A stretch of 64,000 nucleotides of DNA from an uncultured Clostridia bacterium (GTDB taxonomy: Bacteria; Bacillota; Clostridia; Christensenellales; UBA1242), in NCBI GenBank assembly GCA_934772045.1, contig CAKVMH010000001.1, forward strand, positions 17,006-81,005, given 5' to 3'. The notes beneath the pieces were generated by a model that was not told the DNA's origin, made no database searches, and worked only from the letters and a program-made list of their open reading frames with translations. The translations under genes and the position numbers were made by a program. Of this stretch, positions 12,770-35,047 are shown piece after piece; positions within the stretch are counted from its first letter, which is position 1, and every line of letters starts with the position of its first letter.

Positions 12770-15700
12770 TTAAATTGTTGTGTTTTCAATGAGTTTAATT
12801 GCGGTGTATGTCAAATTCAACTCTGCATCGCCTTGCCCCATAAACGAGAGTTGTGCACCTGAACTTGTTTGTTGAATTTTATAAACATACACTTGTCCAT
12901 CTAAGGTATATGTAATTTGAATAGCATTGCCAACCTTAGAAACATCAACATTTAACAAAGCGTTGCCGTCTTTATCCGCCACCTTAACAGTGTCTGTTAA
13001 ATCTCCATTCCAATTCATGTTAAATGTGAATGTTAGCAATTCGTCAACGAAGTGCAATTCGGTGAGTTGAACTTTTTCGCCTTCGGTTGTTGCGTTGGTT
13101 AAGAAATCTAATTTAACTTCGGTGTTATAAGAATAGTTTTTGCCAGCATTTTTATTCACAACATCATTGCCTGTAAGTTGATGTGGATTTTTATTGTTCA
13201 ATTCCATAATGTCGGCATACAAGTTTTCGCTTGTCGACAATGCAAATGTGTTTTTAGTTATCTTCACATCGATAACTAGGTTATTGTTCATTGTGACTGT
13301 TGTGTCAATTTCATCGCTGGTTGCTGTTGCGCCACCTGAAATTGCGATTGTGAACTTCTCTTTCAATATTGAACTGATTTTAATGTTTGCTGTGCTGTTG
13401 GCATTTATATATTGACTAACAAAAGTTGTGTTGCCGTCCAGTTTTGTGTCATCCACCGAAATCTCGTTCAAATACTCGGCGCCTTCGCTAACTGTAAAGG
13501 TTATATTATATTTCCTTATATTCCTAATCTTTAAAGTAATAGTTTTATTATTATCATTATAGTTACCAGCAAGTGATGAAATCAAAGCCGTGTCAATTTT
13601 AAGCGTCGCTGGGCTTGTTGTTCCAATTTCTTTTTCCACCCCATTATTTACATAATAGAATTTAATTAAGGCTTCGTTTGCAAGGTCAGATTTACGCACC
13701 AAAGTTATTGTGTCGTTAATTGAGCAACTGCCAGCGGACAAAACCAAATTGCCGACATCTATTTTAACTGCTTGATTACCGTTGATTGAATAGGTGTAGT
13801 TATCCAAATTGTCGGTTACAAGTTCCATTTTTGTGTTAATAAGCACCTTTTGGAACAGCACGTAATATGTGCCTGAAATTGAATTGATAAATTCGTCGTT
13901 TGTAAGGCCGTCTGGGCAATTACCGTTTGTAATGGTTATTGTATTGCCCACTGGTTTCCATGCGGTGTTAATGTTGCCATAATTCTGTTTAACACCGACA
14001 AAGCGGTATCCGTTTGGAATGGTGCCAAGCCTGATTTCCACTTTCAAGCCTTCCAAGAAACTGCCTTGTTTGCCTTTGTCTGTGCCACTTATATACAAAC
14101 TTGCAAAGTTTTCCATTGCTTGTAAATCTTCATTATGGAAAACCGCGCCATTTGAATTGTCTGGCGAAACAACAAGGTTGATTTGACCCTTTTTGCGGTC
14201 ACTAATCACAAGTGTTAACAAAACTTCGCTTGCCTCATAATCCGCTGTGGAAACTTTAATTTGGTTACTAGAATTCATGCGCCCGCCAGCACCATTAACA
14301 AGCACTTCTAAATGATACAAATTGTTCAATGTATAAGACAATGTGATTGTGTCGTTTGCAACAACATGTGAGCCGTCGGCATTGTTTGTAATTCCACAAA
14401 GTTCCCCACGCGCAATTTTAATTTGCAAGTTAGTAACATACTCTTGCAATTGTTCTTCAGTTATGTATTTACCTTCGTTTTGATAATAGTAATTTACACC
14501 AAAAGGCAAAGTTGTTGGAATGAAGTTTGCATAAATTGTGCAATCGCCATTAACGGTGAATGATGACGAAATTTCCTCACCTAAATTAGATGTAAATGAA
14601 ACGGAAGTATAATATTTATTGTTCCATTCTGCACTTACAGAGTTACTAAGTTTTTTATGTGTGTAAATTGTGCTGACACCGCCAACTGATTCAACTGTCA
14701 AAGTCCTTGAATTGTTGTTATTCACACCATTTGAGATTGTCATGCTACGTTCTGTGCAATTTGTATCGTTTGGTTGGTCTTCCGGAACCGCACCCATCAA
14801 TTTGCCCGGCTCAATCTGCATTGTTATTTCATAAATAGGGCTAACTTCGACCACAATTGTGAATGTGCGCTTATCTTCTGGCACAATCACACCCGCACTG
14901 GTTTCCACCATACGGTAAAGTGTGTCTGTATCAATAGCCTTGCTATACACAGGTTTTTCAGTTAATGCAAAGTTGTATTGTTGCCTTAATAATGAGTATT
15001 CAGTTATCGCCCTTGGTTGATAGCCCCAAGCATTTAATATCGCATATTTATTTTCATTTATAAGCATGTAGTTGGTAACAAACGCACCGGTAGAGTCATT
15101 CAACGCATTGTAAGGCATTGTCCAATTCAAGACATCAGGAAGCGTCCAGTTAGACCTAACTTCACCATTTGAAATTGGTGTTGTATAGTCGTCAGTTTCA
15201 TAAACAACATATTTCACACTGAATGTAATGTATTCAACATTGATTGTTAAGTTGCCCAAACCCTGATTTTTATCCGCACTGTATGATGTATTTTCGCGAT
15301 AATAGAAATTCCTAAGCCAAGCACCACTCATGTTTAAAATGTATGTTTGGTCATTGCCCACCAAAGCCGGTGTTCCGTCCATATCTAAACTTGAAAGTTC
15401 TGTTTTGGTTTTTAATATTGTACCAGTGTATTCGTTCAATGAAAAGGCTGGTGTTTGAAGACCGAAACCAGCAAATGCGTGGTAATAAATTGAAAATCTG
15501 CTTCCACGCTTTAAATTTAAGTTATAGGTTTTATATGTGCCATTAGCATTTGTAAGGTTGTTTGTAATTATAATGTTGCCAGAATTTGTAACCTGCTTAA
15601 CCAATTCATCACGCATTTCAACTGTTGTGCTGTAATTAATTGGTTCAAAAGTCACATTCGCACTTATTTCATCGTTATCGTGCAACTTAATAAGTTCAAC

Positions 15701-18700
15701 ATCTGTTCCGTCTTCATACTTAGCCTTAAATAGTATTGTCTGCAAGCCATCACTGATTGTTGTGTCGTTTGTATGCAATGTGAACGCATATGATAAACTG
15801 TCTGCCTTTTCTTTCGTGATTGTACCTTTACCATTATTCATTTGAACGCCAAGCACGCCAGCAAAACGATAACCTATCATATCGTCGTAGTAATCGTTTG
15901 TTTTGCCCATGTCGGTAACTTTGCTTTGGTCATAAACATTTACCCTAATTTCACAGCCAGGGTAAATGACAATTGATTTTTCACCATGTGCTAATACCCA
16001 ACCAGAACTGCTAAGTTTTGAAACATCACTGCCCGCTGTGTTTTGTGCGTCTTTACCGATGTACTTATACATGTCAAAACCGCCAGCGTCGTTAAACTTG
16101 ATTATATATGACGCATTGTTTTCTGCGTTGCCATTATCGACAAGTTCAAGTTGAACATACCCATAAAAGCCTTGCAGACCTTCAACAATTGTATTTACAT
16201 CAAGGTTATATTGTTCGCGGTAGAAAATCGGGGAAAGGTTAAGGTTACCAAACGTCACGGTTTCTTCATCACAATTTAATGTCCAAACATCAGCAGTGCA
16301 TGCAAATATTTTGTCTACAACACTAACTGCATTCTTTTGCCCTTCGCTTTTTTCATCATAAATCGTTGTTGTGAAATTACACTTACCATCAGCACCATTG
16401 TAGCGCCATGAAATCAAGTTGTAGTAAGGTTTAACTAAACGTAAATCGCCTATAACATGGTCATTTAACAAGTAAATAAACATGCTTCCATCGGCGTTAG
16501 TGTAAACCGTCCTTAAATAATAATCATGTGCATTTGTTACATCTTCACCAGTGGTTGTGTAATCATAATTCACTGTGCCAACTTTATATTTGCTAACTTG
16601 AGCACCAAATATATTAGCATAATTTTCAGTTGGCTTATTTTTGTAAAGATCAATCTTATTTTCGTCTTGATCAGAATACTTACAAGTTACCCATTCGGTG
16701 TAATAATATACATCTGGGCTGTTTGCGATTGTTCCGCCTACATAATCCGTCCCAGCACCATCTTCACTCAGTTCAGCGTTGTCCGTGTTAATCAATTTTA
16801 CTTTATAAATGTTGTCAACTTCATGTTCAGTCAACGCCAAACTATAACACAAGTTTTCAAAATCAAATATGTTTTTATTTTCCACATTGTACTTGTAGTT
16901 TGATGTTGTAATATTTGTATACAACCAAGGCAACCCAGCACCATTACCATCATCACAAACAACAATGCTTTCACCAGCCGTATAGTAGGCTATGCTCTTA
17001 CCAATTGTCGCATGTTTGCCGACTTCAAGTTTATAAGTATCCATGTAAGAGATAACCTTTTCTTCACCCTCAAACTTCCCAGTTAACTTAATTTTCACAG
17101 GGTTCCAAACAGGTTGAATTGTGATTATCGTAGAAGCAAAAGTATAATCGCCCAAAGTCCATGTGTTGATTGCTTCAATCATAGAAGCAAGGCTTTTACG
17201 TATGGTAACACGATTGCCATCAGCCCCAAACAAGCTTGTAATATTAACAGTGTGTTGGTCAATTGAATCTTCTTTCCCCCAATCATTACCGTCAATGTAG
17301 ATGTAATAAGTCCTATTGTTATATTTGAAGCTTATCGTATAGCCCACAACATCAAAACCATAGTTGTAAATGGTGTATCTATTTGCATTGTCTATAAATG
17401 TCAAACTCAAATTTGGGTTAGATTTTAAATCTGAATATTTGGTGAATGCTGTATCTTTTGAGGAATACGCAAACGCCATGGTTGTTGTCGCATCTAAAGT
17501 AAATTTAACTTTTATTGAACCATTATCCGCTTCAACTTTGTTGCCGTTTGCACTAATGCCATATAAGTCGTTTTCTTTGTCAATTTCTGTCCATTTTGTT
17601 TTTGAATTGTCTATCTCGACATTATATTTCATGCTCCAACTTGGGATAACAATCATGTTAAACATTACGGGTTCATTAGTTGGCTTACCTTGGACATTTC
17701 CCTTGTCAAACACATTGTTTGGGGTATCTCCACTTTCTCCGCCAAAACCTCTAACTTGTGTTACCTTAACATATGTTTTTCCGTTAAATGTTGTAGTTGT
17801 GCCACCATCAGTTACAAATTCAACCCAATATCTAGATTGTGCAGTGTCGTTACCATTGCCGTCTTTTACCCAAATTACCCATTTATTTGTTTCGTCTTGG
17901 CGCTGATATCCGTAACTTTGTATAGCATCAATATCTAACAGCCAGCCATTAAACACGGCTTCTTTAACAAGTGGTTCGTAATCTTCACCGAAGAAGGCTT
18001 TAAGGCTTGAATCATCATTAGGTAAATACTTGTAATACAAAACATTTATTTTTGACAGCATGTTTTTAACAGCATCTAAATAGTCAACTCCGTTTACACT
18101 GTAAGGCTTGTTGTCTTTTGAAATTTCCGATGAATATCTAGCACCTTCATTGCCTGCCTTAACGCTATCTTTAATTGTGTATCCTAATGCAAAATCATAT
18201 TCTATTAACTCAATTTCAGCGGTAATCGTCAAGCTGTCATAACGCGCAAACTCAAATGTGGTGCCAGTCCCAACCGATGAATTTATGCCCGTTTTTGAAT
18301 TTTCCGCTTCAAAAGTTATGCTTTTTAACCTATACCCTTGCCACAATGATAGCGTGACAGTGTAATTTATTTTATTACCTTTTTTGTATGCCCCAAATTG
18401 AAATTGTGCCGATTGAGTACTCACATAATTGCCTTCATTCTTTATTTTTGTGCCTAGCCCAACATAGTAATCAAAGGCTTCCCATACTTGTGTTCCAGCA
18501 GTTGAAGTTTCTTTCCAGTCTGCACCAAGAATAGTCCTTCCGTCTGGTTGAACAGTCTCAGGCTGAATACCCTTTATTCTAAAATGTAAATCCGGCAGTA
18601 ATTTATCAGGATCTGGCGGATTTGGGTTTGGATCTGGCCCTGGATCAATCAAATGCACAAACTGTAATTGGATAATGCTATTTATACTTGTCTTATACGC

Positions 18701-20119
18701 CTCTTTGTCTGTATCCTGCCTAAGGTCATCACTTCCCACCAATATAGTGTTTTCATTGTGATAAACACCCAGTATGTATTTTACGCCACTACATACATAG
18801 CAGTCAGCATCATTTATCACAAATGAATATGTGCTGGTTACACCATCTATGCCCTTGATTTTCCATTGTTTAGGGTATCCCTCATAAGGTGCCACTTCAA
18901 CAACTGGCGTATTTTCGTTAACAACGATAGTAGGCGGTGATGGCAATTCCGTTCCTTCTTTAAACCAACTTACCGACGGCTGGCCAGATTTTGTTGGTTC
19001 AAATTTCACAGTGTATCTCGGGTAAATATATGCAACTACAAACACATTATTGCATTTTAAGCTACCTAGTGCATTTTCTCCATAGGCATCCGTACCCCAT
19101 TCTCCTAAATTTTCTCCACTTGAGTCAAAAATAGTCGTTGTATTATCTTTATTTTCACCGATTGACACAATAACCTTGTCGAATTTAAACTTGAAACCAT
19201 CATTTTCACTTTTAATTGTGTTTGTAATTGTAGTTTCTTTTCCGTCTACAGTAGCTGTTAATTTAAGCTCACAATCTGTGGTATAGTCAGTTTCACTAGG
19301 TTCACACACCGCTAATGTGGTGTAATCAAAATTGATTATATTTGTTTTTTCATACCAGTAAAATTTATAAGTTTCTATAAATTCGCCGGTATTTGCACTT
19401 CTCAAATCATAGCTGACTTTGTAGTCTTTAGGCCACTGGTTACTGGTTTTTAAAATTATTTTGCAAATAAATTCATCGTTAGCTGACGGATTTTGTTCAT
19501 ATGCATATGTAATTGATTCTTTATACTTCAGCCAATCAAATGAAGCACCATTTCTTATTATGGAATTATTAAGATTGAAACCATACCCGTAAAAGTACCC
19601 CTTTTGTATTTCTGAATCCGTTGGCTCAAACAACAAAGGAACTTCCTTTTGGTAAACTTTAAATTTATCTGTATAACCAGCGGTTATGCTTTTTATTTCA
19701 TTCTCTGCAGTGTCGCTTCCAATGTATACTTTAACTAAAAAGTCAACTGTTCTCCATTTCTCAAACTGCCTTAATGTTGGCAAACCACCATTGTATTCAT
19801 TCGTCCTAGGCTGGTACCACACAGAACCAGTTGTTCCAGGTTCAACACTGATAACCCAGCCCAATGTATCTTTGTAAAAAGTAGATGAGTTTACTTTGCT
19901 TTCTTCCTGCGCCCCCACTTTTAATTGCAATGAAGTATCATTTTTATCTTCCACATTCAAATTGTAATAAGCAGTGGGGATTGTTTCAGTTTCTGCCGAC
20001 ACCGCTGGCATATTTTTTGTTTTACTTAAACTCATCAGCCCAAACGCAAAAATAGAAACAACAATCATTAACATTGTCGTCAAAATATAAGTTTTTGTTT
20101 TCCCCTTTCCAAAACTCAT
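12770..20119 (-). CDS. Giant (2449 aa) secreted/surface protein, no recognised domain
   Basis: Uninterrupted 7.35-kb ORF; GAGGGGG SD; N-terminal signal/anchor (ILTTMLMIVVSIFAFGLMSL...AVSA); N/T/Y/G/V-rich beta-type composition; DPGPDPNPNPPDPD linker around residue 500; no LPXTG or lipobox. Confidence 0.8.
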   Translation of the reverse strand: MSFGKGKTKTYILTTMLMIVVSIFAFGLMSLSKTKNMPAVSAETETIPTAYYNLNVEDKNDTSLQLKVGAQEESKVNSSTFYKDTLGWVISVEPGTTGSVWYQPRTNEYNGGLPTLRQFEKWRTVDFLVKVYIGSDTAENEIKSITAGYTDKFKVYQKEVPLLFEPTDSEIQKGYFYGYGFNLNNSIIRNGASFDWLKYKESITYAYEQNPSANDEFICKIILKTSNQWPKDYKVSYDLRSANTGEFIETYKFYWYEKTNIINFDYTTLAVCEPSETDYTTDCELKLTATVDGKETTITNTIKSENDGFKFKFDKVIVSIGENKDNTTTIFDSSGENLGEWGTDAYGENALGSLKCNNVFVVAYIYPRYTVKFEPTKSGQPSVSWFKEGTELPSPPTIVVNENTPVVEVAPYEGYPKQWKIKGIDGVTSTYSFVINDADCYVCSGVKYILGVYHNENTILVGSDDLRQDTDKEAYKTSINSIIQLQFVHLIDPGPDPNPNPPDPDKLLPDLHFRIKGIQPETVQPDGRTILGADWKETSTAGTQVWEAFDYYVGLGTKIKNEGNYVSTQSAQFQFGAYKKGNKINYTVTLSLWQGYRLKSITFEAENSKTGINSSVGTGTTFEFARYDSLTITAEIELIEYDFALGYTIKDSVKAGNEGARYSSEISKDNKPYSVNGVDYLDAVKNMLSKINVLYYKYLPNDDSSLKAFFGEDYEPLVKEAVFNGWLLDIDAIQSYGYQRQDETNKWVIWVKDGNGNDTAQSRYWVEFVTDGGTTTTFNGKTYVKVTQVRGFGGESGDTPNNVFDKGNVQGKPTNEPVMFNMIVIPSWSMKYNVEIDNSKTKWTEIDKENDLYGISANGNKVEADNGSIKVKFTLDATTTMAFAYSSKDTAFTKYSDLKSNPNLSLTFIDNANRYTIYNYGFDVVGYTISFKYNNRTYYIYIDGNDWGKEDSIDQHTVNITSLFGADGNRVTIRKSLASMIEAINTWTLGDYTFASTIITIQPVWNPVKIKLTGKFEGEEKVISYMDTYKLEVGKHATIGKSIAYYTAGESIVVCDDGNGAGLPWLYTNITTSNYKYNVENKNIFDFENLCYSLALTEHEVDNIYKVKLINTDNAELSEDGAGTDYVGGTIANSPDVYYYTEWVTCKYSDQDENKIDLYKNKPTENYANIFGAQVSKYKVGTVNYDYTTTGEDVTNAHDYYLRTVYTNADGSMFIYLLNDHVIGDLRLVKPYYNLISWRYNGADGKCNFTTTIYDEKSEGQKNAVSVVDKIFACTADVWTLNCDEETVTFGNLNLSPIFYREQYNLDVNTIVEGLQGFYGYVQLELVDNGNAENNASYIIKFNDAGGFDMYKYIGKDAQNTAGSDVSKLSSSGWVLAHGEKSIVIYPGCEIRVNVYDQSKVTDMGKTNDYYDDMIGYRFAGVLGVQMNNGKGTITKEKADSLSYAFTLHTNDTTISDGLQTILFKAKYEDGTDVELIKLHDNDEISANVTFEPINYSTTVEMRDELVKQVTNSGNIIITNNLTNANGTYKTYNLNLKRGSRFSIYYHAFAGFGLQTPAFSLNEYTGTILKTKTELSSLDMDGTPALVGNDQTYILNMSGAWLRNFYYRENTSYSADKNQGLGNLTINVEYITFSVKYVVYETDDYTTPISNGEVRSNWTLPDVLNWTMPYNALNDSTGAFVTNYMLINENKYAILNAWGYQPRAITEYSLLRQQYNFALTEKPVYSKAIDTDTLYRMVETSAGVIVPEDKRTFTIVVEVSPIYEITMQIEPGKLMGAVPEDQPNDTNCTERSMTISNGVNNNNSRTLTVESVGGVSTIYTHKKLSNSVSAEWNNKYYTSVSFTSNLGEEISSSFTVNGDCTIYANFIPTTLPFGVNYYYQNEGKYITEEQLQEYVTNLQIKIARGELCGITNNADGSHVVANDTITLSYTLNNLYHLEVLVNGAGGRMNSSNQIKVSTADYEASEVLLTLVISDRKKGQINLVVSPDNSNGAVFHNEDLQAMENFASLYISGTDKGKQGSFLEGLKVEIRLGTIPNGYRFVGVKQNYGNINTAWKPVGNTITITNGNCPDGLTNDEFINSISGTYYVLFQKVLINTKMELVTDNLDNYTYSINGNQAVKIDVGNLVLSAGSCSINDTITLVRKSDLANEALIKFYYVNNGVEKEIGTTSPATLKIDTALISSLAGNYNDNNKTITLKIRNIRKYNITFTVSEGAEYLNEISVDDTKLDGNTTFVSQYINANSTANIKISSILKEKFTIAISGGATATSDEIDTTVTMNNNLVIDVKITKNTFALSTSENLYADIMELNNKNPHQLTGNDVVNKNAGKNYSYNTEVKLDFLTNATTEGEKVQLTELHFVDELLTFTFNMNWNGDLTDTVKVADKDGNALLNVDVSKVGNAIQITYTLDGQVYVYKIQQTSSGAQLSFMGQGDAELNLTYTAIKLIENTTI

Positions 20120-30492: not shown

Positions 30493-31506
30493 TTAAATGA
30501 ACTTTTCAGTTTCTTTAATGATTTTTTGCATCATTTTAACCGCTTCGACAGGATGTTTGCCAGACGCTGATTCTCCAGACAACATGACCGCATTTGTCCC
30601 ATCATAAAGCGCATTTGCAACATCGCTAACTTCTGCACGTGTAGGGCGTAAATTGTTAATCATGCTTTCAAGCATTTCAGTTGCAACAATGACAAACTTA
30701 CCTTTACGCACCGCTTTTGAAATCATGTCTTTTTGAATGTGAGGCAATTTTTCCATAGGCAATTCAACGCCAAGGTCGCCACGCGCAACCATGAGTCCGT
30801 CGCTCGTTTCAATGATTTCGTTTAAATTCTTAACGCCCAAAGCAGATTCAATTTTAGAAATTATTTTCATATTGCTTTTATTTTCAGCCAAAATTTTTCT
30901 AACGGCTTGAACATCTTTTTTACTGTTTACAAAACTTATTGCAACCATATCAAATTTGTTTTTTACTGCCCAAATGATGTCTTGCAGGTCTAAATCGTTA
31001 ACATATTTGATGTTTAATTTAAGGTTTGGTATAAACAAACTTTTATTGTTGCTTAAAATTCCACCATTCTTTGCAATCGTTATAATGTCCTTTTCAGTTT
31101 TGTCCACAACTTTAAATTCAAGCAAACCATCATTAGCCTTAATCACACTTCCAATTTCCACATTTTTCACAATGCGCGGTTGATTGATTGAAACAATCTC
31201 AGCATTGCCAACAACACTCTTTGCTGTAAAAACAAAATTTTGTCCTTTTTTAATGTCAACTTTGCCGTCTTTAAAAGTTTTAACCCTAATTTCAGGCCCG
31301 CGCGTATCCAACATAAGTGAAAGATTAAACCCTTCTTTCCTTAATTGTTTTACATTAGCAACAATTGCTTCCATATCTCCATGTTTTGCGTGTGAAAGAT
31401 TGATGCGGACAATATCCATGCCAGCCTGCGCCATTTTCTTCATTGTTTGAAAATCAAAACTGCTAGGCCCAATAGTAGCAACAATCTGTGTTTTATCGTT
31501 AGTCAT
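30493..31506 (-). CDS. pyk: Pyruvate kinase, short form lacking the C-terminal domain
   Basis: N-terminus [27 protein letters not shown] motifs present; the ORF stops at 337 aa, at about the end of the A-domain barrel. Confidence 0.8.
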
Positions 31507-31632: not shown

Positions 31633-31661
31633 TTGAAATTTTGGCGTGTTAAGGCTATAAT
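31633..31661 (+). promoter_or_regulatory. ssrA promoter
   Basis: TTGAAA (31633-38) - 17 nt - TATAAT (31656-61); tmRNA 5' G lies 9 nt downstream. Confidence 0.7.
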
Positions 31662-31669
31662 AATTATAT

Positions 31670-32025
31670 GGGGATGAATTAGTTTCGACTGTCATGCTCT
31701 GTTTTGATACGCATGCCGAGCGTCGGCTCGTTAAACACGTCTTGTTTTTGAACAAGATTAAATAAATCAAAACAACAATAAACTTGCTATGGCTGCCTAG
31801 TTGCACCTAGCCGTCAGTTTGGCAGTACCGATATGCCAAAGTCTGGCGTCGTAAATCGGTAAACGATTGATTTTGTCGCCTAGCGAACTCAATTGTACTT
31901 ATAGGCTTGAAACCCGCAAGTGTTGGTGTAAGTTGCAGGTTTTGAAATATAGTCATCAACTAAGCATGTAGTGTATGATTTCAAAGCATGGTAGGACATG
32001 GGTGCAACCCCCATCATCTCCACCA
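31670..32025 (+). ncRNA. ssrA: tmRNA (transfer-messenger RNA)
   Basis: 5' GGGGATG pairs with 3' CATCTCC-ACCA; T-arm-like GGGTGCAACCCCC; internal tag frame ending ..AAT AAA CTT GCT ATG GCT GCC TAG (..NKLAMAA*) at 31762-31800. Confidence 0.9.
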
Positions 32026-32033
32026 ATTTTTAA

Positions 32034-32136
32034 ATAAACCAAATTATTTCGCTGTCGCTCTTAAATTTGGTTTGTCGTATTAAGAATAAGCCAATTTACT
32101 TCGCTGTTGCTCGTAAATAAGGCTTGTTGTATTCAC
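32034..32136 (+). repeat. Two tandem 52-bp hairpin repeat units (dispersed family)
   Basis: AATAAACCAAATTATTTCGCTGTCGCTCTTAAATTTGGTTTGTCGTATTAAG / AATAAGCCAATTTACTTCGCTGTTGCTCGTAAATAAGGCTTGTTGTATTCAC. Confidence 0.75.
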
Positions 32137-32140
32137 AATA

Positions 32141-32200
32141 AAAAAAACAGTTAAATGAAGTGACCCCATAGGAGTTTACTTGAAAATTAACTGTTTTTTA
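32141..32200. terminator. Bidirectional terminator (ssrA / barstar-like gene)
   Basis: AAAAAAACAGTTAA ... TTAACTGTTTTTT long-loop hairpin. Confidence 0.55.
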
Positions 32201-32476
32201 TTGTATTGTAACTTTAAATTCATTTGGAAATTTTTTTTCAGCATCAAAGAAACAATTTAAAATTTTAGTTATAATTTCATCGTTATAATCATTTTCCTTT
32301 CCTGTAAAATTTTTTAAAACAATTTCACAAGGTGTATTTATGAAGCCTGTCAACATATCCCAAAGTGCATCTGCATTTTTACCAAACCATTCAGGCAATT
32401 TCATCTCTTTTTGTATAAGGTCATAAAATTCATCACCCCACTTGAAATTTTTTCTATCAAACACATATTTTTCCAT
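32198..32476 (-). CDS. Barstar-family ribonuclease inhibitor / immunity protein
   Basis: LPEWFGKNADALWDMLTGFINTPCEIVLKNF aligns by eye with barstar [31 protein letters not shown]. Confidence 0.75.
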   Translation of the reverse strand: MEKYVFDRKNFKWGDEFYDLIQKEMKLPEWFGKNADALWDMLTGFINTPCEIVLKNFTGKENDYNDEIITKILNCFFDAEKKFPNEFKVTIQ

Positions 32477-32496
32477 TATTATTCTCCCTATTCTTA

Positions 32497-32835
32497 TTAA
32501 GAATTATAATCATAAGAAATTTTGTTTTTCTTTTCACCTAATAGATTTTTAATATATCCACTTTCAACTTTACACCACCATTTTGGATCGTTTCTAGGAA
32601 TTCCACTTAATATGTATTCATCAGGACATCCACCGTCTTCAACTAATTCTAAATCTTCAATTTTGATAGAAGAACATTTGTACATATCCTTGTGATTACC
32701 CGTTTCAAAAGCAACATAGAACTCACTATTCCTAATTTCAGGCAACCATATAATTCCAATTTCATCCTTAAAAGCATTGTCTTTTTTATATCTTTCTCTA
32801 TCAACAAGCAGTTTTACTTTATCTAAGTATTTCAC
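32497..32835 (-). CDS. Small hypothetical protein, immunity/antitoxin-like (DUF4926-like N-terminus, tentative)
   Basis: 112-aa ORF between two barstar-like genes; N-terminal pattern resembles small SH3-like immunity proteins. Confidence 0.4.
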   Translation of the reverse strand: MKYLDKVKLLVDRERYKKDNAFKDEIGIIWLPEIRNSEFYVAFETGNHKDMYKCSSIKIEDLELVEDGGCPDEYILSGIPRNDPKWWCKVESGYIKNLLGEKKNKISYDYNS

Positions 32836-32929
32836 TATGCCAACCTCCTATCAAAGTAACACAGCTTAATTTTCCTTCCGGAAAAACGATAAATAACGAT
32901 TTTACATCACATATTCCATATTTAATTCT

Positions 32930-33253
32930 TTATTTTTCCATAGGTTCGAATTCGATAGTATTATTTGGATGTTGTTTAACAAAGTCTTGCAATACTTCAA
33001 AGATAATTTTCCATTCATAATCATCATAAGTCGTTTTTTGCTTTATTTTTTTCAAATCAAAGCCTACAAACACAAACTTTATATTCTTGTCATGATTATA
33101 CCACAAAAATTCATCAAGCATATTTGCGTTGTAATTAAGGTTTGGATAATCTTCCCAATCCATAAAGCCTTTACCATTCAATTCTTCGTATACCTGCGTA
33201 TAAAAATCTTTGTAGCTTGTCAAATTATCCCTATTAAAAATTATCACTTGCAT
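32930..33253 (-). CDS. Barstar-like immunity protein (divergent)
   Basis: 107 aa; NLNYNANMLDEFLWY region aligns with the barstar NLDALWDCL helix; similar length and layout. Confidence 0.5.
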   Translation of the reverse strand: MQVIIFNRDNLTSYKDFYTQVYEELNGKGFMDWEDYPNLNYNANMLDEFLWYNHDKNIKFVFVGFDLKKIKQKTTYDDYEWKIIFEVLQDFVKQHPNNTIEFEPMEK

Positions 33254-33373
33254 TTTCTTCTCCTTATTTTATAAACATCACTTGCCTTTCATCATGAAAT
33301 TCCGAATAAAACATAAGTCCATCATTTGAATAATACAACCTTCATTTTAGATTTTTAAGTACTACATTTAAAA

Positions 33374-33859
33374 TTAGTAAGCCTTTTTTAAATCTTTTTC
33401 TATTTGTTTTGTTTTTAAAGTTTCGCGTTTGTCGGCAAGATTTTTACCGCGTGCTGTGGCAATTTCAACTTTTAAATTGCTACCACTGAAATATGCCTTT
33501 GTTGGCACAAGTGTTAAATGCTCCTGTTCCAATGCTTTTTTAATTTTTTGTATTTCAATTTTATGCAATAACAGTTTCCTATCTCGCCTTGTTCTGTCAC
33601 CAAAGCGACCAGCGTCAAAACTGTTTGAATATTCTTTAATATAACTGTTGCGTAAAAAACATTCATCATCTTTAATGTAAGCATAACAATCTACCAAAGA
33701 AAGGTGCCCTGCGCGAACCGATTTTATTTCATCACCAGTAAGCACAATGCCTGCTTCATAAAAATCTAACAAATTATATTCAAACCTAGCGCGCCTATTT
33801 TCCGCCACCAGGCGTGGGCTTTCTTTTTTTTCACTCTTATTTTTGACTTTCATTTTCAT
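33374..33859 (-). CDS. smpB: SsrA-binding protein
   Basis: 161 aa; ENRRARFEY, GDEIKS, LLLHK motifs typical of SmpB. Confidence 0.9.
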   Translation of the reverse strand: MKMKVKNKSEKKESPRLVAENRRARFEYNLLDFYEAGIVLTGDEIKSVRAGHLSLVDCYAYIKDDECFLRNSYIKEYSNSFDAGRFGDRTRRDRKLLLHKIEIQKIKKALEQEHLTLVPTKAYFSGSNLKVEIATARGKNLADKRETLKTKQIEKDLKKAY

Positions 33860-34034: not shown

Positions 34035-34220
34035 GTGATGCTAAATAGTAATTTACTTGTAAGGTGTTTTGCTCGCGCGTCTGCGTCTAGCACAATCGAT
34101 TGTGACATATACACCCAAATTGAACAAGCACAAAAGTTAATGGAATGCAAAAGTTACGAACAACAAACAAAAGAATATGCAAAATTTTTAATGAAGTTTG
34201 CAAAAAGGAGGAACAGTTAA
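34035..34220 (+). CDS. Small protein (61 aa), possible antitoxin/partner of the PIN-like protein
   Basis: GGGAGTGA SD; stop overlaps the downstream ATG (TAATG). Confidence 0.4.
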   Translation: MMLNSNLLVRCFARASASSTIDCDIYTQIEQAQKLMECKSYEQQTKEYAKFLMKFAKRRNS

Positions 34221-35047
34221 TGAAATCACACGATGGTTTTTATCATGAAGACACTTATTTTTCAATAGACAGCGACCTTGTATTATGCCTTGCAGAAATT
34301 CACCATATACAAAGATTTTATGGCAAGGTTGAATATTATCACATAAACAAAAAATACTTCGCTGCCAGAAATAACTTTAATGAAATAATGTATTTGTACG
34401 AACTTATTTCAACAGGCAAACTTAAACCAGTTATTACAAACACAGTTTTCCAAGAAATTAGCGGAAGTATCTATGCAACAGACAGCGGTAACTTTGATAT
34501 TAATATTATCAAGTTTTTTGAAGACTTTTGTTACGCTCCAAAGCCGAATGTTTTGTTATCTAATCGTGAAAGCGACCGCGTACAAGTTTTGGCAAAAAAG
34601 TATTGCTTACCTTACAAAGACAATACAAAGAAAAAACACCCAGCACCTATGAAATTTAAATTCAATGCATACTTTAACATGATGTTGCCTGAAAATGATG
34701 CCGTTTGTGTTGCGGAAGCTTCTGAAATGAATTTGTCTTTCTTAACATACAATGGTAGGCATCTCATTTGGCGTGGAAAAGATGAAGATGCAAAAGTAAG
34801 GACACTCGGTATAGTTGCAATTAACATACAAAGCGGATACTATACACAAACTCCAACCGGAAGCAAAATCGTTCCAAAGCCAATGTATTTGCTTGATTTT
34901 GTCAACTCTGTTAAAGCGTGTGATGGTGGTTTAAATTTCTACGACTGCCCATCGCCAGACCCAAATAGGATTGTGCGTTTAAAAGACTTAATTGACCTTG
35001 AAGCATTTAAAGCCGAACTTAAAAAAGAAGATGATGAAATTGTGTAA
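34220..35047 (+). CDS. PIN-like domain protein (putative nuclease)
   Basis: AAAGGAGG SD; SIDSDLVLCLAE, PVITNTVFQEI and NDAVCVAEASEMNLSFLTYNGRHL match the acidic-residue pattern of PIN domains; start at MKSHDG rather than ORF-track 34145. Confidence 0.5.
   Translation: MKSHDGFYHEDTYFSIDSDLVLCLAEIHHIQRFYGKVEYYHINKKYFAARNNFNEIMYLYELISTGKLKPVITNTVFQEISGSIYATDSGNFDINIIKFFEDFCYAPKPNVLLSNRESDRVQVLAKKYCLPYKDNTKKKHPAPMKFKFNAYFNMMLPENDAVCVAEASEMNLSFLTYNGRHLIWRGKDEDAKVRTLGIVAINIQSGYYTQTPTGSKIVPKPMYLLDFVNSVKACDGGLNFYDCPSPDPNRIVRLKDLIDLEAFKAELKKEDDEIV

What the first reader, a model, noticed from the sequence alone, without database searches (positions are those of the whole stretch)
31670..33859. Orphan immunity-gene islet (two barstar-like genes and one small immunity-like gene) wedged between convergent ssrA and smpB
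Seen: ssrA (plus strand) and smpB (minus strand) converge. The 1.35 kb between them carries three small minus-strand genes. One (32198-32476) has a clear barstar signature (LPEWFGKNADALWDMLTGF). One (32930-33253) is a divergent barstar-like protein. One (32497-32835) is of immunity/antitoxin size. No RNase or toxin gene, integrase or secretion gene accompanies them. Tiny ORF fragments (MKVVLFK*, MMDLCFIRNFMMKGK*) lie in the 33254-33373 spacer. Known: rnr-smpB-ssrA are usually collinear in Firmicutes, and the 3' end of ssrA is a classic island integration site. Arrays of orphan immunity genes protect against toxins from competitors. Inference: this is the remnant of an ssrA-targeted island, or an acquired immunity array against secreted barnase-type RNase toxins. 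The ssrA orientation suggests a local inversion.
Basis: partly seen in the sequence, partly recalled or inferred. Interest (0 to 1): 0.55.

Follow-up and report, generated by a model that had tools for sequence, protein, structure and literature searches.

The report
Toxin-less RNase-immunity gene array beside ssrA
Between smpB and the tmRNA gene of an uncultured human-gut Clostridia bacterium lie three intact RNase-toxin immunity genes, two of them still preceded by the last 25-31 codons of their deleted toxin genes: an ordinary but unusually clear example of a bacterium losing its toxins and keeping the antidotes.

Summary
tmRNA (31670-32025, +) and smpB (33374-33859, -) converge. The 1348 bp between them carries three intact minus-strand genes.

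- **g1 (32198-32476)** is a bona fide barstar (Pfam 61 bits).
- **g3 (32930-33253)** is a divergent barstar. Pfam misses it, but hhalign gives 94% and its best PDB fold match is barstar 2cx6.
- **g2 (32497-32835)** belongs to a DUF4926-like family with an SH3-like N-terminal domain.

In relatives, g3-family genes always follow a ~190-aa barnase-domain toxin, and g2-family genes always follow a ~210-aa unclassified toxin. Several of these pairs sit at this same smpB-ssrA locus.

The spacers hold the C-terminal 25-31 codons of exactly those two toxins (tblastn E about 1e-8).

The islet is therefore a decayed polymorphic-toxin locus reduced to an immunity-only array. It lies at a clade-wide hotspot at the ssrA 3' end. 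The convergent ssrA orientation is ancestral (19 of 20 species), not a local inversion. The window has no integrase, no second ssrA 3' end and no intact toxin.

This is a new member of a known kind (polyimmunity or orphan-immunity loci). Interest is moderate.

The parts
31670..32025 (+). ssrA (tmRNA gene). Its 3' CCA end faces the islet. A promoter-like TTGAAA-17-TATAAT lies at 31633-31661.
   Evidence: Rfam RF00023, 128 bits, E 1e-49; promoter scan
32033..32136 (.). Two tandem 52-nt units (79% identical), each folding into a hairpin. They lie between the tmRNA 3' end and the terminator, are specific to this species and occur nowhere else in the window.
   Evidence: the repeat finder D1; fold z = -5.0; motif search finds only these two copies; relatives have only about 20 nt here
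32142..32199 (.). Bidirectional terminator-like hairpin (13-bp perfect arms, with an A-run on one side and a T-run on the other) shared by the converging g1 and ssrA transcripts. Equivalent hairpins close the cassettes in relatives.
   Evidence: the repeat finder I16; fold; comparison with L016, L022, L040 and L029
32198..32476 (-). g1: a canonical barstar-family RNase inhibitor (92 aa) with no barnase gene upstream.
   Evidence: Pfam PF01337, 61.4 bits; PDB barstar E 4.6e-9; 82-84% identical single-gene barstar cassettes in L029 and L138; dN/dS 0.08 against L029
32497..32835 (-). g2: immunity protein (112 aa, GTG start, AGGAGG ribosome-binding site) of a DUF4926-like family. It has an SH3-like N-terminal domain and a conserved WWCKVE...GEKKNK C-terminal part. 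It is the partner of the unclassified 'type X' toxin.
   Evidence: 308 homologues; 13 of 59 members give sub-threshold DUF4926 hits; AF2 pLDDT 95; always directly downstream of type X toxins; dN/dS 0.10 against L016
32834..32929 (-). Stub 2: the last 25-31 codons of a type X toxin gene (RIKYGICDVKSLFIVFPEGKLSCVTLIGGWH), with no start codon, running into the g2 start.
   Evidence: tblastn against the L016 toxin, residues 187-211: 72% identity, E 3e-8. DNA homology to L016 starts about 8 nt before the g3 stop.
32930..33253 (-). g3: divergent barstar-fold immunity protein (107 aa) from a small family absent from Pfam. It is the partner of ~190-aa barnase-domain toxins.
   Evidence: hhalign against barstar 93.9%, E 1.5e-7; AF2 pLDDT 95 with beta-alpha-alpha-beta-alpha-alpha-beta order; Foldseek top hit 2cx6_A barstar, TM 0.61/0.70; always directly after PF00545 toxins
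33264..33356 (-). Stub 1: the last 25 codons plus stop codon of a barnase-type toxin gene (RLYYSNDGLMFYSEFHDERQVMFIK*). An in-frame stop lies just upstream. The stub starts 18 nt after the smpB stop codon.
   Evidence: tblastn: 67% over 30 aa against the L015 toxin, E 6e-8; 84-88% over 25 aa against the L028 and L138 toxins, E 1e-8; 24 of 25 residues match the L135 toxin
33374..33859 (-). smpB, the upstream co-directional neighbour and possible source of read-through transcription into the array.
   Evidence: Pfam SmpB 161.6 bits; NCBIfam equivalog. No terminator-like site found between smpB and g3.

Best explanation
The islet is what remains of two or three small toxin-immunity cassettes that once lay next to the 3' end of ssrA. 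The toxin genes have been deleted down to their last 25-31 codons. The three immunity genes remain as a compact co-directional array directly behind smpB.

Inferred mechanism: g1 and g3 are barstar-fold proteins that would plug the active site of barnase-type RNases. g2, a DUF4926-like protein, would bind and neutralise a second toxin type, probably also an RNase. Because the cell makes the antidotes but not the toxins at this locus, the array most likely protects it against these toxins when relatives in the same gut community, or their phages, deliver them.

Shown: the gene identities, the toxin stubs, the strict toxin-immunity pairing in relatives, the hotspot, and the intactness of the genes across strains.

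Inferred: binding and neutralisation, the protective role, and the way the toxins are delivered.
For: - **g1 is barstar.** Pfam gives 61 bits and the key acidic residues are kept.
- **g3 is barstar-like.** hhalign gives 93.9% and the best PDB fold match is barstar 2cx6.
- **The pairing is strict.** In every fetched locus, barnase-domain toxins are followed by g3-family genes and type X toxins by g2-family genes. The 22 contigs of other organisms cover at least ten different loci.
- **Intact pairs sit at this very locus in related species.** L016/L026 and L022 carry type X toxin plus a g2 homologue. L028, L040 and L138 carry a barnase toxin plus a g3 homologue.
- **The window keeps the toxin C-termini directly upstream of g3 and g2.** The tblastn E-values are 6e-8, 3e-8 and 1e-8.
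- **The stubs have decayed while the immunity genes have not.** Stub 1 has an in-frame stop and neither stub has a start codon. All three immunity ORFs are intact wherever the 10 same-species contigs reach them, and these come from several cohorts. dN/dS is 0.08-0.10 against orthologous cassettes.
- **Toxin loss with immunity retention recurs elsewhere.** The identical protein P0076 is found both with an intact toxin (L051, L053, L054) and with only a 57-codon remnant (called ORF 46 aa) (L050, L052).
- **Toxin-bearing relatives share the habitat.** L022 comes from the same Hadza gut MAG set as contigs of this species.
- **Published support.** Imm-Barstar is specific for barnase-like toxins, and polyimmunity loci have been proposed as a pre-emptive defence (PMC3482391). 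DUF4926 lies downstream of BECR-Tox3/DUF6883 RNase toxins that are often fused to Phage_Mu_F (bioRxiv 10.64898/2026.08.28.747851).
Against: - No binding, expression or protection data exist.
- g2 itself does not reach the DUF4926 threshold, and the type X toxin domain matches no family or structure. Its activity is therefore unknown.
- The low dN/dS values mix lineages that still have the toxin with this one, so they do not prove selection on the orphan state.
- Only 64 kb of the genome was searched. A matching toxin elsewhere would make the genes non-orphan.
- The toxins have no signal peptide or recognised trafficking domain, so intercellular delivery is not established. They might act inside the producing cell as toxin-antitoxin-like modules.
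Confidence: 0.7

Rival explanations
1. Neutral relic. The three genes are leftovers of decayed cassettes that have not yet become pseudogenes and give no benefit.
For: The toxins are gone and the cassette promoters and left arms are missing. Within-species diversity is too low (0-1.7% divergence) to measure selection on the orphan state.
Against: The adjacent toxin remnants are reduced to 25-31 codons and stub 1 carries an in-frame stop. In contrast, all three immunity ORFs, their Shine-Dalgarno sequences and the toxin-immunity junctions are intact in every contig that reaches them. Three separate deletions each stopped just short of an immunity gene. Orphan immunity genes have experimentally shown protective roles in gut Bacteroidales (bioRxiv 10.1101/471110, PMC12247911, abstracts only).
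Confidence: 0.15
2. Not orphan. The genes serve toxins that the same genome encodes elsewhere. This locus is then a spare or second immunity set for the cell's own weapons.
For: Relatives carry several toxin-immunity pairs at different loci in one genome (L045, L051, L052). Only 64 kb of this genome was available.
Against: No barnase-type or type X toxin sequence other than the two stubs occurs in the window. In all other loci seen, the toxin lies immediately upstream of its immunity gene.
Confidence: 0.1
3. Orphan antitoxins of intracellular toxin-antitoxin or abortive-infection modules. The ~200-aa toxins never leave the cell, and the surviving genes act as anti-addiction modules or have no role.
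For: The toxins are short, lack signal peptides and lack any recognised secretion domain. The hotspot also carries defence genes such as Abi_2 and a methylase in relatives.
Against: - The toxins have the architecture of polymorphic toxins: a shared N-terminal module (MG[VI]LD..KD, CxxC...HxxCxC) with interchangeable C-terminal toxin domains, each with its own immunity gene downstream.
- Tandem immunity paralogues follow single toxins (L011, L044).
- In phage contig L044 the toxin sits directly after the portal gene, the MuF position, which points to delivery through virions.
- The immunity gene lies downstream and has no DNA-binding domain, unlike typical type II antitoxins.
Confidence: 0.05

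Closest known systems
Polyimmunity loci and orphan immunity gene arrays (Zhang et al. 2012, PMC3482391; AID systems of gut Bacteroidales, bioRxiv 10.1101/471110)
   Same: Tandem, co-directional, closely spaced immunity genes of different families with no functional toxin. The proposed role is pre-emptive protection against toxins of neighbours in a dense gut community.
   Different: - This array has only three genes.
- It has no adjacent recombinase.
- It does not vary between strains of the species.
- Its genes are separated by recognisable toxin-gene stubs, whereas Zhang et al. state that polyimmunity loci are never interrupted by toxin cassettes.
- It therefore looks like a decayed toxin locus rather than an assembled immunity collection.
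- The host is a Gram-positive-type Clostridia lineage, not Bacteroidales with T6SS.
Barnase-barstar (Tox-Barnase / Imm-Barstar) pairs
   Same: g1 is a canonical barstar. g3 has the barstar fold and secondary-structure order, and an invariant acidic residue (E48) on the helix that aligns with barstar's inhibitory helix. In relatives g3-family genes sit where barstar sits, right after a PF00545 domain.
   Different: There is no intact barnase here. g3 is not detected by Pfam Barstar and belongs to a small separate family (59 clusters at 50% identity among 1.84 billion proteins). The partner toxins are not secreted barnases with signal peptides. They are ~190-aa proteins with an N-terminal Cys/His module.
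MuF polymorphic toxins of temperate phages (Jamet et al. 2017, PMC5576092) and BECR-Tox3/DUF6883-DUF4926 pairs (bioRxiv 10.64898/2026.08.28.747851)
   Same: - The lost toxins have a conserved N-terminal part, a variable C-terminal toxin domain and a small downstream immunity gene.
- In viral contig L044 a type X toxin lies immediately after the portal gene and is followed by three g2-family genes.
- The g2 family is DUF4926-like.
- Zhang et al. list MuF as a trafficking mode for the barnase-like toxin.
   Different: - Pfam Phage_Mu_F, PHROGs and NCBIfam do not recognise the N-terminal module, and the type X domain is not detected as DUF6883.
- There is no match in 50,697 phage genomes.
- The g3 family is absent from IMG/VR.
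- Most copies are chromosomal with no phage genes nearby.
Orphan cdiA-CT/cdiI and rhs-CT/immunity modules; tandem islands at ssrA; integrase-less CIME-type elements (recalled from general knowledge)
   Same: Displaced toxin 3' fragments lie next to retained immunity genes. In relatives the cassettes are bounded by copies of the ssrA terminal octamer, as in successive integrations at a tmRNA gene.
   Different: The stubs here are far too short, and lack the conserved N-terminal region, to be rebuilt by recombination. The window has no att duplicate and no integrase.

Membership tests
Barstar (PF01337) - g1 | Sequence match above the curated Pfam threshold over the whole domain | tested here: met
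   61.4 bits against a cutoff of 23.4, covering profile positions 3-92 of 96; PDB barstar E 4.6e-9
Barstar (PF01337) - g1 | Acidic residues of the inhibitory helix (barstar Asp35, Asp39) conserved | tested here: met
   The aligned motif GKNADALWDMLTG has Asp at both positions
Barstar (PF01337) - g1 | Encoded next to a barnase-type RNase gene | tested here: not met
   No barnase in the window. The 5 closest metagenomic relatives are also stand-alone, although 41 of 80 more distant barstar loci have a barnase match in the flanking 3 kb, in nearly all directly upstream.
Barstar (PF01337) - g1 | Inhibits a barnase-type RNase | not testable with these tools
   Needs biochemistry
Barstar superfamily - g3 | Sequence match to the Pfam Barstar model | tested here: not met
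   No hit at E<=1 for g3 or its L011 paralogues. One distant family member, P0272, reaches only 15 bits. A family profile finds no barstar among PDB sequences.
Barstar superfamily - g3 | Profile-profile homology to barstar | tested here: met
   hhalign of A4 against A6: probability 93.9%, E 1.5e-7, 85 aligned columns. The barstar profile had only 4 sequences.
Barstar superfamily - g3 | Barstar fold | tested here: met
   AF2 pLDDT 95 with beta-alpha-alpha-beta-alpha-alpha-beta order. Foldseek rank 1 is 2cx6_A barstar: E 2.1e-3, probability 1.0, TM 0.61/0.70. The next hit has TM 0.32.
Barstar superfamily - g3 | Gene directly downstream of a barnase-domain toxin | tested here: met
   Met in relatives: L011-L013, L015, L028, L040, L045-L049, L135, L138 and L139. 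In the window only the toxin's last 25 codons remain.
DUF4926 (PF16277) - g2 | Sequence match above the curated threshold | tested here: not met
   g2 has no hit. 13 of 59 family members hit; the best scores 27.9 bits, below the cutoff of 29.1.
DUF4926 (PF16277) - g2 | Small SH3-like beta-barrel domain | tested here: inconclusive
   The AF2 model has pLDDT 95. Foldseek returns SH3, KOW, PsaE and L21e domains, but only at E 0.06 or weaker and TM about 0.4.
DUF4926 (PF16277) - g2 | Sits downstream of a toxin as its putative immunity gene | tested here: met
   Always directly after type X toxins. The published DUF6883-DUF4926 association is, but the type X toxin is not detected as DUF6883.
Polyimmunity locus (Zhang et al. 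2012) | Tandem co-directional immunity genes with short intergenic distances | tested here: met
   Three genes on the minus strand with spacers of 94 and 20 nt
Polyimmunity locus (Zhang et al. 2012) | Never interrupted by toxin genes or toxin cassettes | tested here: inconclusive
   There are no intact toxins or usable cassettes, but 25-31-codon toxin stubs precede g3 and g2
Polyimmunity locus (Zhang et al. 2012) | Content varies between strains; a recombinase is often adjacent | tested here: not met
   The array is the same in 10 same-species contigs. There is no recombinase in the gap or its flanks. Content does vary between species.
ssrA-targeted integrative island | Lies at the 3' end of ssrA | tested here: met
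   The array ends 172 nt from the tmRNA CCA end
ssrA-targeted integrative island | Direct repeat of the ssrA 3' segment at the far boundary | tested here: not met
   There is no second copy in the window within 3 mismatches, and the 22-nt cassette arm is absent. Both are present in relatives L016, L022, L024, L029, L036, L040 and L138.
ssrA-targeted integrative island | Integrase gene | tested here: not met
   None between smpB and ssrA or in the flanking genes
MuF polymorphic toxin system (applies to the deleted toxins) | MuF domain recognised by profile | tested here: not met
   No Phage_Mu_F hit at E<=10; no PHROG or NCBIfam hit. The resemblance of the CxxC...HPxCxC motif is recalled from memory only.
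MuF polymorphic toxin system (applies to the deleted toxins) | Gene immediately downstream of a phage portal gene | tested here: inconclusive
   True in the one viral contig found, L044 (P22_portal, 91 bits). Not true of the chromosomal copies. No hits in 50,697 phage records.

The most novel reading that the evidence does not exclude
In this gut Clostridia clade, small integrase-less cassettes insert one after another at the terminal octamer of ssrA (CTCCACCA). Each cassette carries a single barstar gene, or a mini-toxin plus its immunity gene, with its own promoter and terminator and a conserved 22-nt arm (CAAGTTAAACGTCCGTCGAAAA). Successive insertions would build integron-like arrays between smpB and ssrA. 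The window would show the end state of such an array: toxins and cassette arms pruned away, and the immunity genes fused into an operon behind the essential smpB gene. If the toxins travel in phage heads in the way proposed for MuF proteins, the array would act as immunity against toxins injected by phages.
Probability: 0.3. Interest if true: 0.6.

Novelty: new member of a known kind. Interest (0 to 1): 0.42.

Why it matters
Orphan immunity arrays are well documented for T6SS toxins in gut Bacteroidales. They are much less documented for Gram-positive-type gut Clostridia, where the toxin delivery routes are poorly known.

This locus gives a step-by-step picture of how such an array can form. 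Related species carry complete toxin-immunity cassettes at the same site. This species carries stubs plus immunity genes.

The work also defines three things that could be tested directly by co-expression:
- a barstar-like family that current profile libraries miss;
- a second line of genomic evidence linking a DUF4926-like family to an unclassified toxin;
- a family of ~200-aa modular toxins with a shared Cys/His N-terminal module.

The practical consequence is modest. It improves the annotation of several hundred "hypothetical" proteins and flags the smpB-ssrA interval as a place to look for conflict systems in these uncultured lineages.

Tried and rejected
- **ARAGORN** found no tmRNA; Rfam did.
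- **Direct BLASTP** of g1 against g3 gave only a 25-residue N-terminal match, E 0.034.
- **Sequence searches of PDB** with g2, g3 and their family profiles gave nothing meaningful.
- **A full HMM search** of 1.84 billion representatives with the g3 profile did not bridge to canonical barstars. It showed only a small closed family.
- **Type X toxin:** no hit in Pfam, NCBIfam, PHROGs or PDB sequences.
- **The ~190-aa minus-strand ORFs** inside some relatives' cassettes were checked as possible small serine recombinases. Their sequences do not look like resolvases, and several are unrelated to each other.
- **The two 52-nt repeats** after ssrA were compared with the relatives' pseudo-ssrA ends. 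Apart from a shared GAGCAA there is no convincing similarity.
- **The idea of a recent ssrA inversion** was rejected.
- **The dN/dS script** failed on identical sequences, and one smpB pair used wrong coordinates. Only the g1 and g2 values are used.
Full report
**1. The observation**

Rfam finds a full-length tmRNA at 31670-32025 on the plus strand (128 bits). ARAGORN had missed it.

The 1348 bp between them contain three intact minus-strand ORFs at exactly the reported coordinates:
- g1, 32198-32476, 92 aa;
- g2, 32497-32835, 112 aa, with a GTG start;
- g3, 32930-33253, 107 aa.

G+C in the islet is 0.26-0.30, against 0.33-0.40 in the flanking genes. The window comes from an uncultured human-gut member of the Clostridia. 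Its relatives are labelled Candidatus Onthoplasma or 'Christensenella sp. UBA4626'. Ten same-species metagenome contigs from several cohorts carry the same genes and are 98.3-100% identical over the islet.

**2. What the three genes are**

*g1* is a canonical barstar. It scores 61.4 bits against Pfam PF01337 (cutoff 23.4) and E 4.6e-9 against PDB barstar chains. The acidic residues aligned with barstar Asp35 and Asp39 are conserved.

*g3* has no Pfam, NCBIfam, PHROG or PDB sequence match. Several other lines of evidence place it with barstar:
- A profile of its family aligns with a small barstar profile at 93.9% probability, E 1.5e-7, over 85 columns.
- Its AlphaFold model (pLDDT 95) has the barstar order of secondary-structure elements.
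- Its top PDB fold match, well ahead of everything else, is the barstar homologue 2cx6 (TM 0.61/0.70).
- The family is small: 162 clusters at 90% identity and 59 at 50% among 1.84 billion representatives. None carries a Pfam label.

*g2* belongs to a family of at least 308 clusters. Thirteen of 59 sampled members give sub-threshold DUF4926 hits. The model (pLDDT 95) has an SH3-like N-terminal barrel, but no significant PDB neighbour.

**3. Context in other genomes**

In every locus recovered, g3-family genes lie immediately downstream of a ~185-226-aa protein whose C-terminal half is a barnase/PF00545 domain. g2-family genes lie immediately downstream of, or overlap, a ~210-218-aa protein with an unclassified C-terminal domain. 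I call this second toxin 'type X'.

The two toxin types share an N-terminal module (MG[VI]LD..KD, then CxxC ... HxxCxC) and differ in the C-terminal half. This is the architecture of polymorphic toxins. Single toxins can be followed by two or three tandem immunity paralogues (L011, L044).

One IMG/VR contig (L044) has a type X toxin directly after a P22-type portal gene. Three g2-family genes follow it, and then putative scaffold and capsid genes. This is the position that Jamet et al. used to define MuF toxins (PMC5576092).

The evidence against MuF membership is substantial:
- No profile recognises a MuF domain.
- Neither toxin matches any of 50,697 phage records.
- The g3 family is absent from IMG/VR.

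MuF membership is therefore a lead, not a finding. A 2026 preprint reports DUF4926 as the conserved downstream partner of BECR-Tox3/DUF6883 RNase toxins, which are often fused to Phage_Mu_F. This fits g2, although type X is not detected as DUF6883.

**4. The toxin stubs**

tblastn of the relatives' toxins against the window finds exactly two matches, both inside the islet's spacers.
- Window 33356..33267 (minus) matches the last 25-30 residues of barnase-type toxins: 67% to L015 (E 6e-8), 84-88% to L028 and L138 (E 1e-8), and 24 of 25 residues to L135. The alignment ends at the same stop codon, which is followed by the g3 ribosome-binding site.
- Window 32908..32834 matches the last 25 residues of the L016 type X toxin (72%, E 3e-8) and runs into the g2 start.

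Stub 1 has an in-frame stop five codons into the alignment, and neither stub has a start codon. DNA homology to the intact cassettes begins abruptly. For stub 1 it begins at window position 33341, close behind the smpB stop; the protein-level match already starts 18 nt after that stop. For stub 2 it begins about 8 nt before the g3 stop. For g1 it begins 4 nt before the ATG.

The same decay is seen elsewhere. The identical g2 homologue P0076 occurs both with an intact 210-214-aa toxin and with only a 57-codon remnant of the toxin (a 46-aa called ORF in L050).

**5. The locus across the clade**

Twenty-six related species share the backbone secG-rnr-(334-aa gene)-smpB-[variable]-tmRNA(minus)-pyruvate kinase-VTT. 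tmRNA converges on smpB in 19 of the 20 species where both are in view. Only the most distant one (L042) is collinear. The orientation is therefore ancestral, not a local inversion.

The gap ranges from 166 bp (L032) to 5685 bp (L031), and exceeds 7 kb where tmRNA lies outside the fetched flank. It holds:
- intact type X toxin plus g2 pairs (L016/L026, L022);
- barnase toxin plus g3 pairs (L028, L040, L138);
- a lone g1-type barstar (L029);
- other cargo: DUF1848, helicases, TraX, a D12 methylase, Abi_2, an AAA_5 ATPase, a T4SS coupling protein, Rep and an IS.

In species without cargo, a terminator hairpin and T-run abut the tmRNA 3' end (L032, L037, L041). In species with cassettes, that ancestral flank is followed by a copy of the ssrA terminal octamer (TGGTGGAG on this strand), joined to a conserved 22-nt sequence, CAAGTTAAACGTCCGTCGAAAA. 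Then come the cassette, its own terminator and the real tmRNA (L016, L022, L029 with three such junctions, L036, L040, L138, L139). L024 carries a 25-nt displaced ssrA 3' fragment.

This pattern suggests serial insertion at the ssrA 3' end. The window has neither the octamer copy nor the 22-nt arm, and it has no integrase. What is specific to the window's species is that smpB and the neighbouring 300-aa gene have swapped order relative to the closest relatives (L017-L020). That swap is probably the event that placed smpB 18 nt from stub 1.

**6. Interpretation**

The best reading is a decayed polymorphic-toxin locus reduced to a small heterogeneous immunity array. It is probably co-transcribed with smpB, since no terminator-like site lies between smpB and g3. 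A shared bidirectional hairpin at 32142-32199 would terminate it.

Two observations favour retention by selection over pure relic status:
- The toxin remnants are destroyed, while the immunity ORFs and their ribosome-binding sites are intact in every contig that reaches them.
- dN/dS is 0.08-0.10 against orthologous cassettes.

These tests are indirect. The concept is established: Zhang et al. 2012 describe polyimmunity loci and the specificity of Imm-Barstar for barnase-like toxins, and orphan immunity arrays are documented in gut Bacteroidales.

What this case adds is the intermediate state, with stubs still in place, together with a barstar-like family missed by current models, a DUF4926-like partner of an unclassified toxin, and the cassette structure at ssrA in relatives.

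Three things remain untested: whether the genome has matching toxins elsewhere, how the toxins are delivered, and whether the proteins bind as predicted.

Noticed in passing
window 32033-32136: Two tandem 52-nt units (79% identical) lie directly after the tmRNA 3' end. Each forms a 10-12-bp hairpin. They occur nowhere else in the window and are absent from related species, which have only about 20 nt here. Their function is unknown; they could be extra ssrA terminators or a small inserted repeat.
   Followed up: partly
window 34145-35047 (+) and 33374-33859 (-), compared with L017-L020: The 300-aa gene has no family match. In the closest related species it lies between smpB and tmRNA. In this species it lies on the other side of smpB, so the two genes have swapped order. 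No smpB remnant was found elsewhere in the window.
   Followed up: partly
L016 7273, L022 8712, L029 7477/7895/8295, L036 7789, L040 8021, L138 386, L139 53: Copies of the ssrA terminal octamer (TGGYGGAG) are joined to a conserved 22-nt sequence, CAAGTTAAACGTCCGTCGAAAA. These junctions bound small cassettes (barstar alone, or toxin plus immunity) in several species. They look like att-type junctions of integrase-less elements.
   Followed up: partly
L044 2731-8552 (IMG/VR contig): A phage head module with a P22-type portal, then a 218-aa type X toxin that overlaps the portal gene's end, then three tandem g2-family immunity genes, then putative scaffold and capsid genes.
   Followed up: partly
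L003 12645-12959 and L005 3946-4260: Some strains of the same species carry an extra 104-aa HTH_3 (XRE-type) gene, an insertion of about 660 bp, between the promoter side of ssrA and pyruvate kinase. In these strains the barstar is 96 aa instead of 92.
   Followed up: no
window 30493-31506 (-): The pyruvate kinase is only 337 aa and has the barrel domain without the C-terminal PK_C domain. The orthologue in L016 is 480 aa and has PK_C. The short form is also called in the same-species contigs.
   Followed up: no
window 12770-20119 (-): A 2449-aa ORF has no Pfam match at E<=0.001.
   Followed up: no
L020 8785-8874: An internal fragment of a barnase-type toxin (about 30 codons, E 2e-4) lies next to the tmRNA 3' end with no immunity gene. 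This is another decayed cassette in a related species.
   Followed up: no
L040 8054-8626 (-), L019 10726-11280 (-), L015 8311-8949 (+): A recurring ~185-212-aa protein (KERYA[YF]V...YKCD motif) accompanies barnase toxin-immunity pairs in several loci.
   Followed up: no
window 33374-33859 (-): SmpB has a 14-residue Lys-rich N-terminal extension (MKMKVKNKSEKKES...) relative to the 147-aa orthologue in L016.
   Followed up: no
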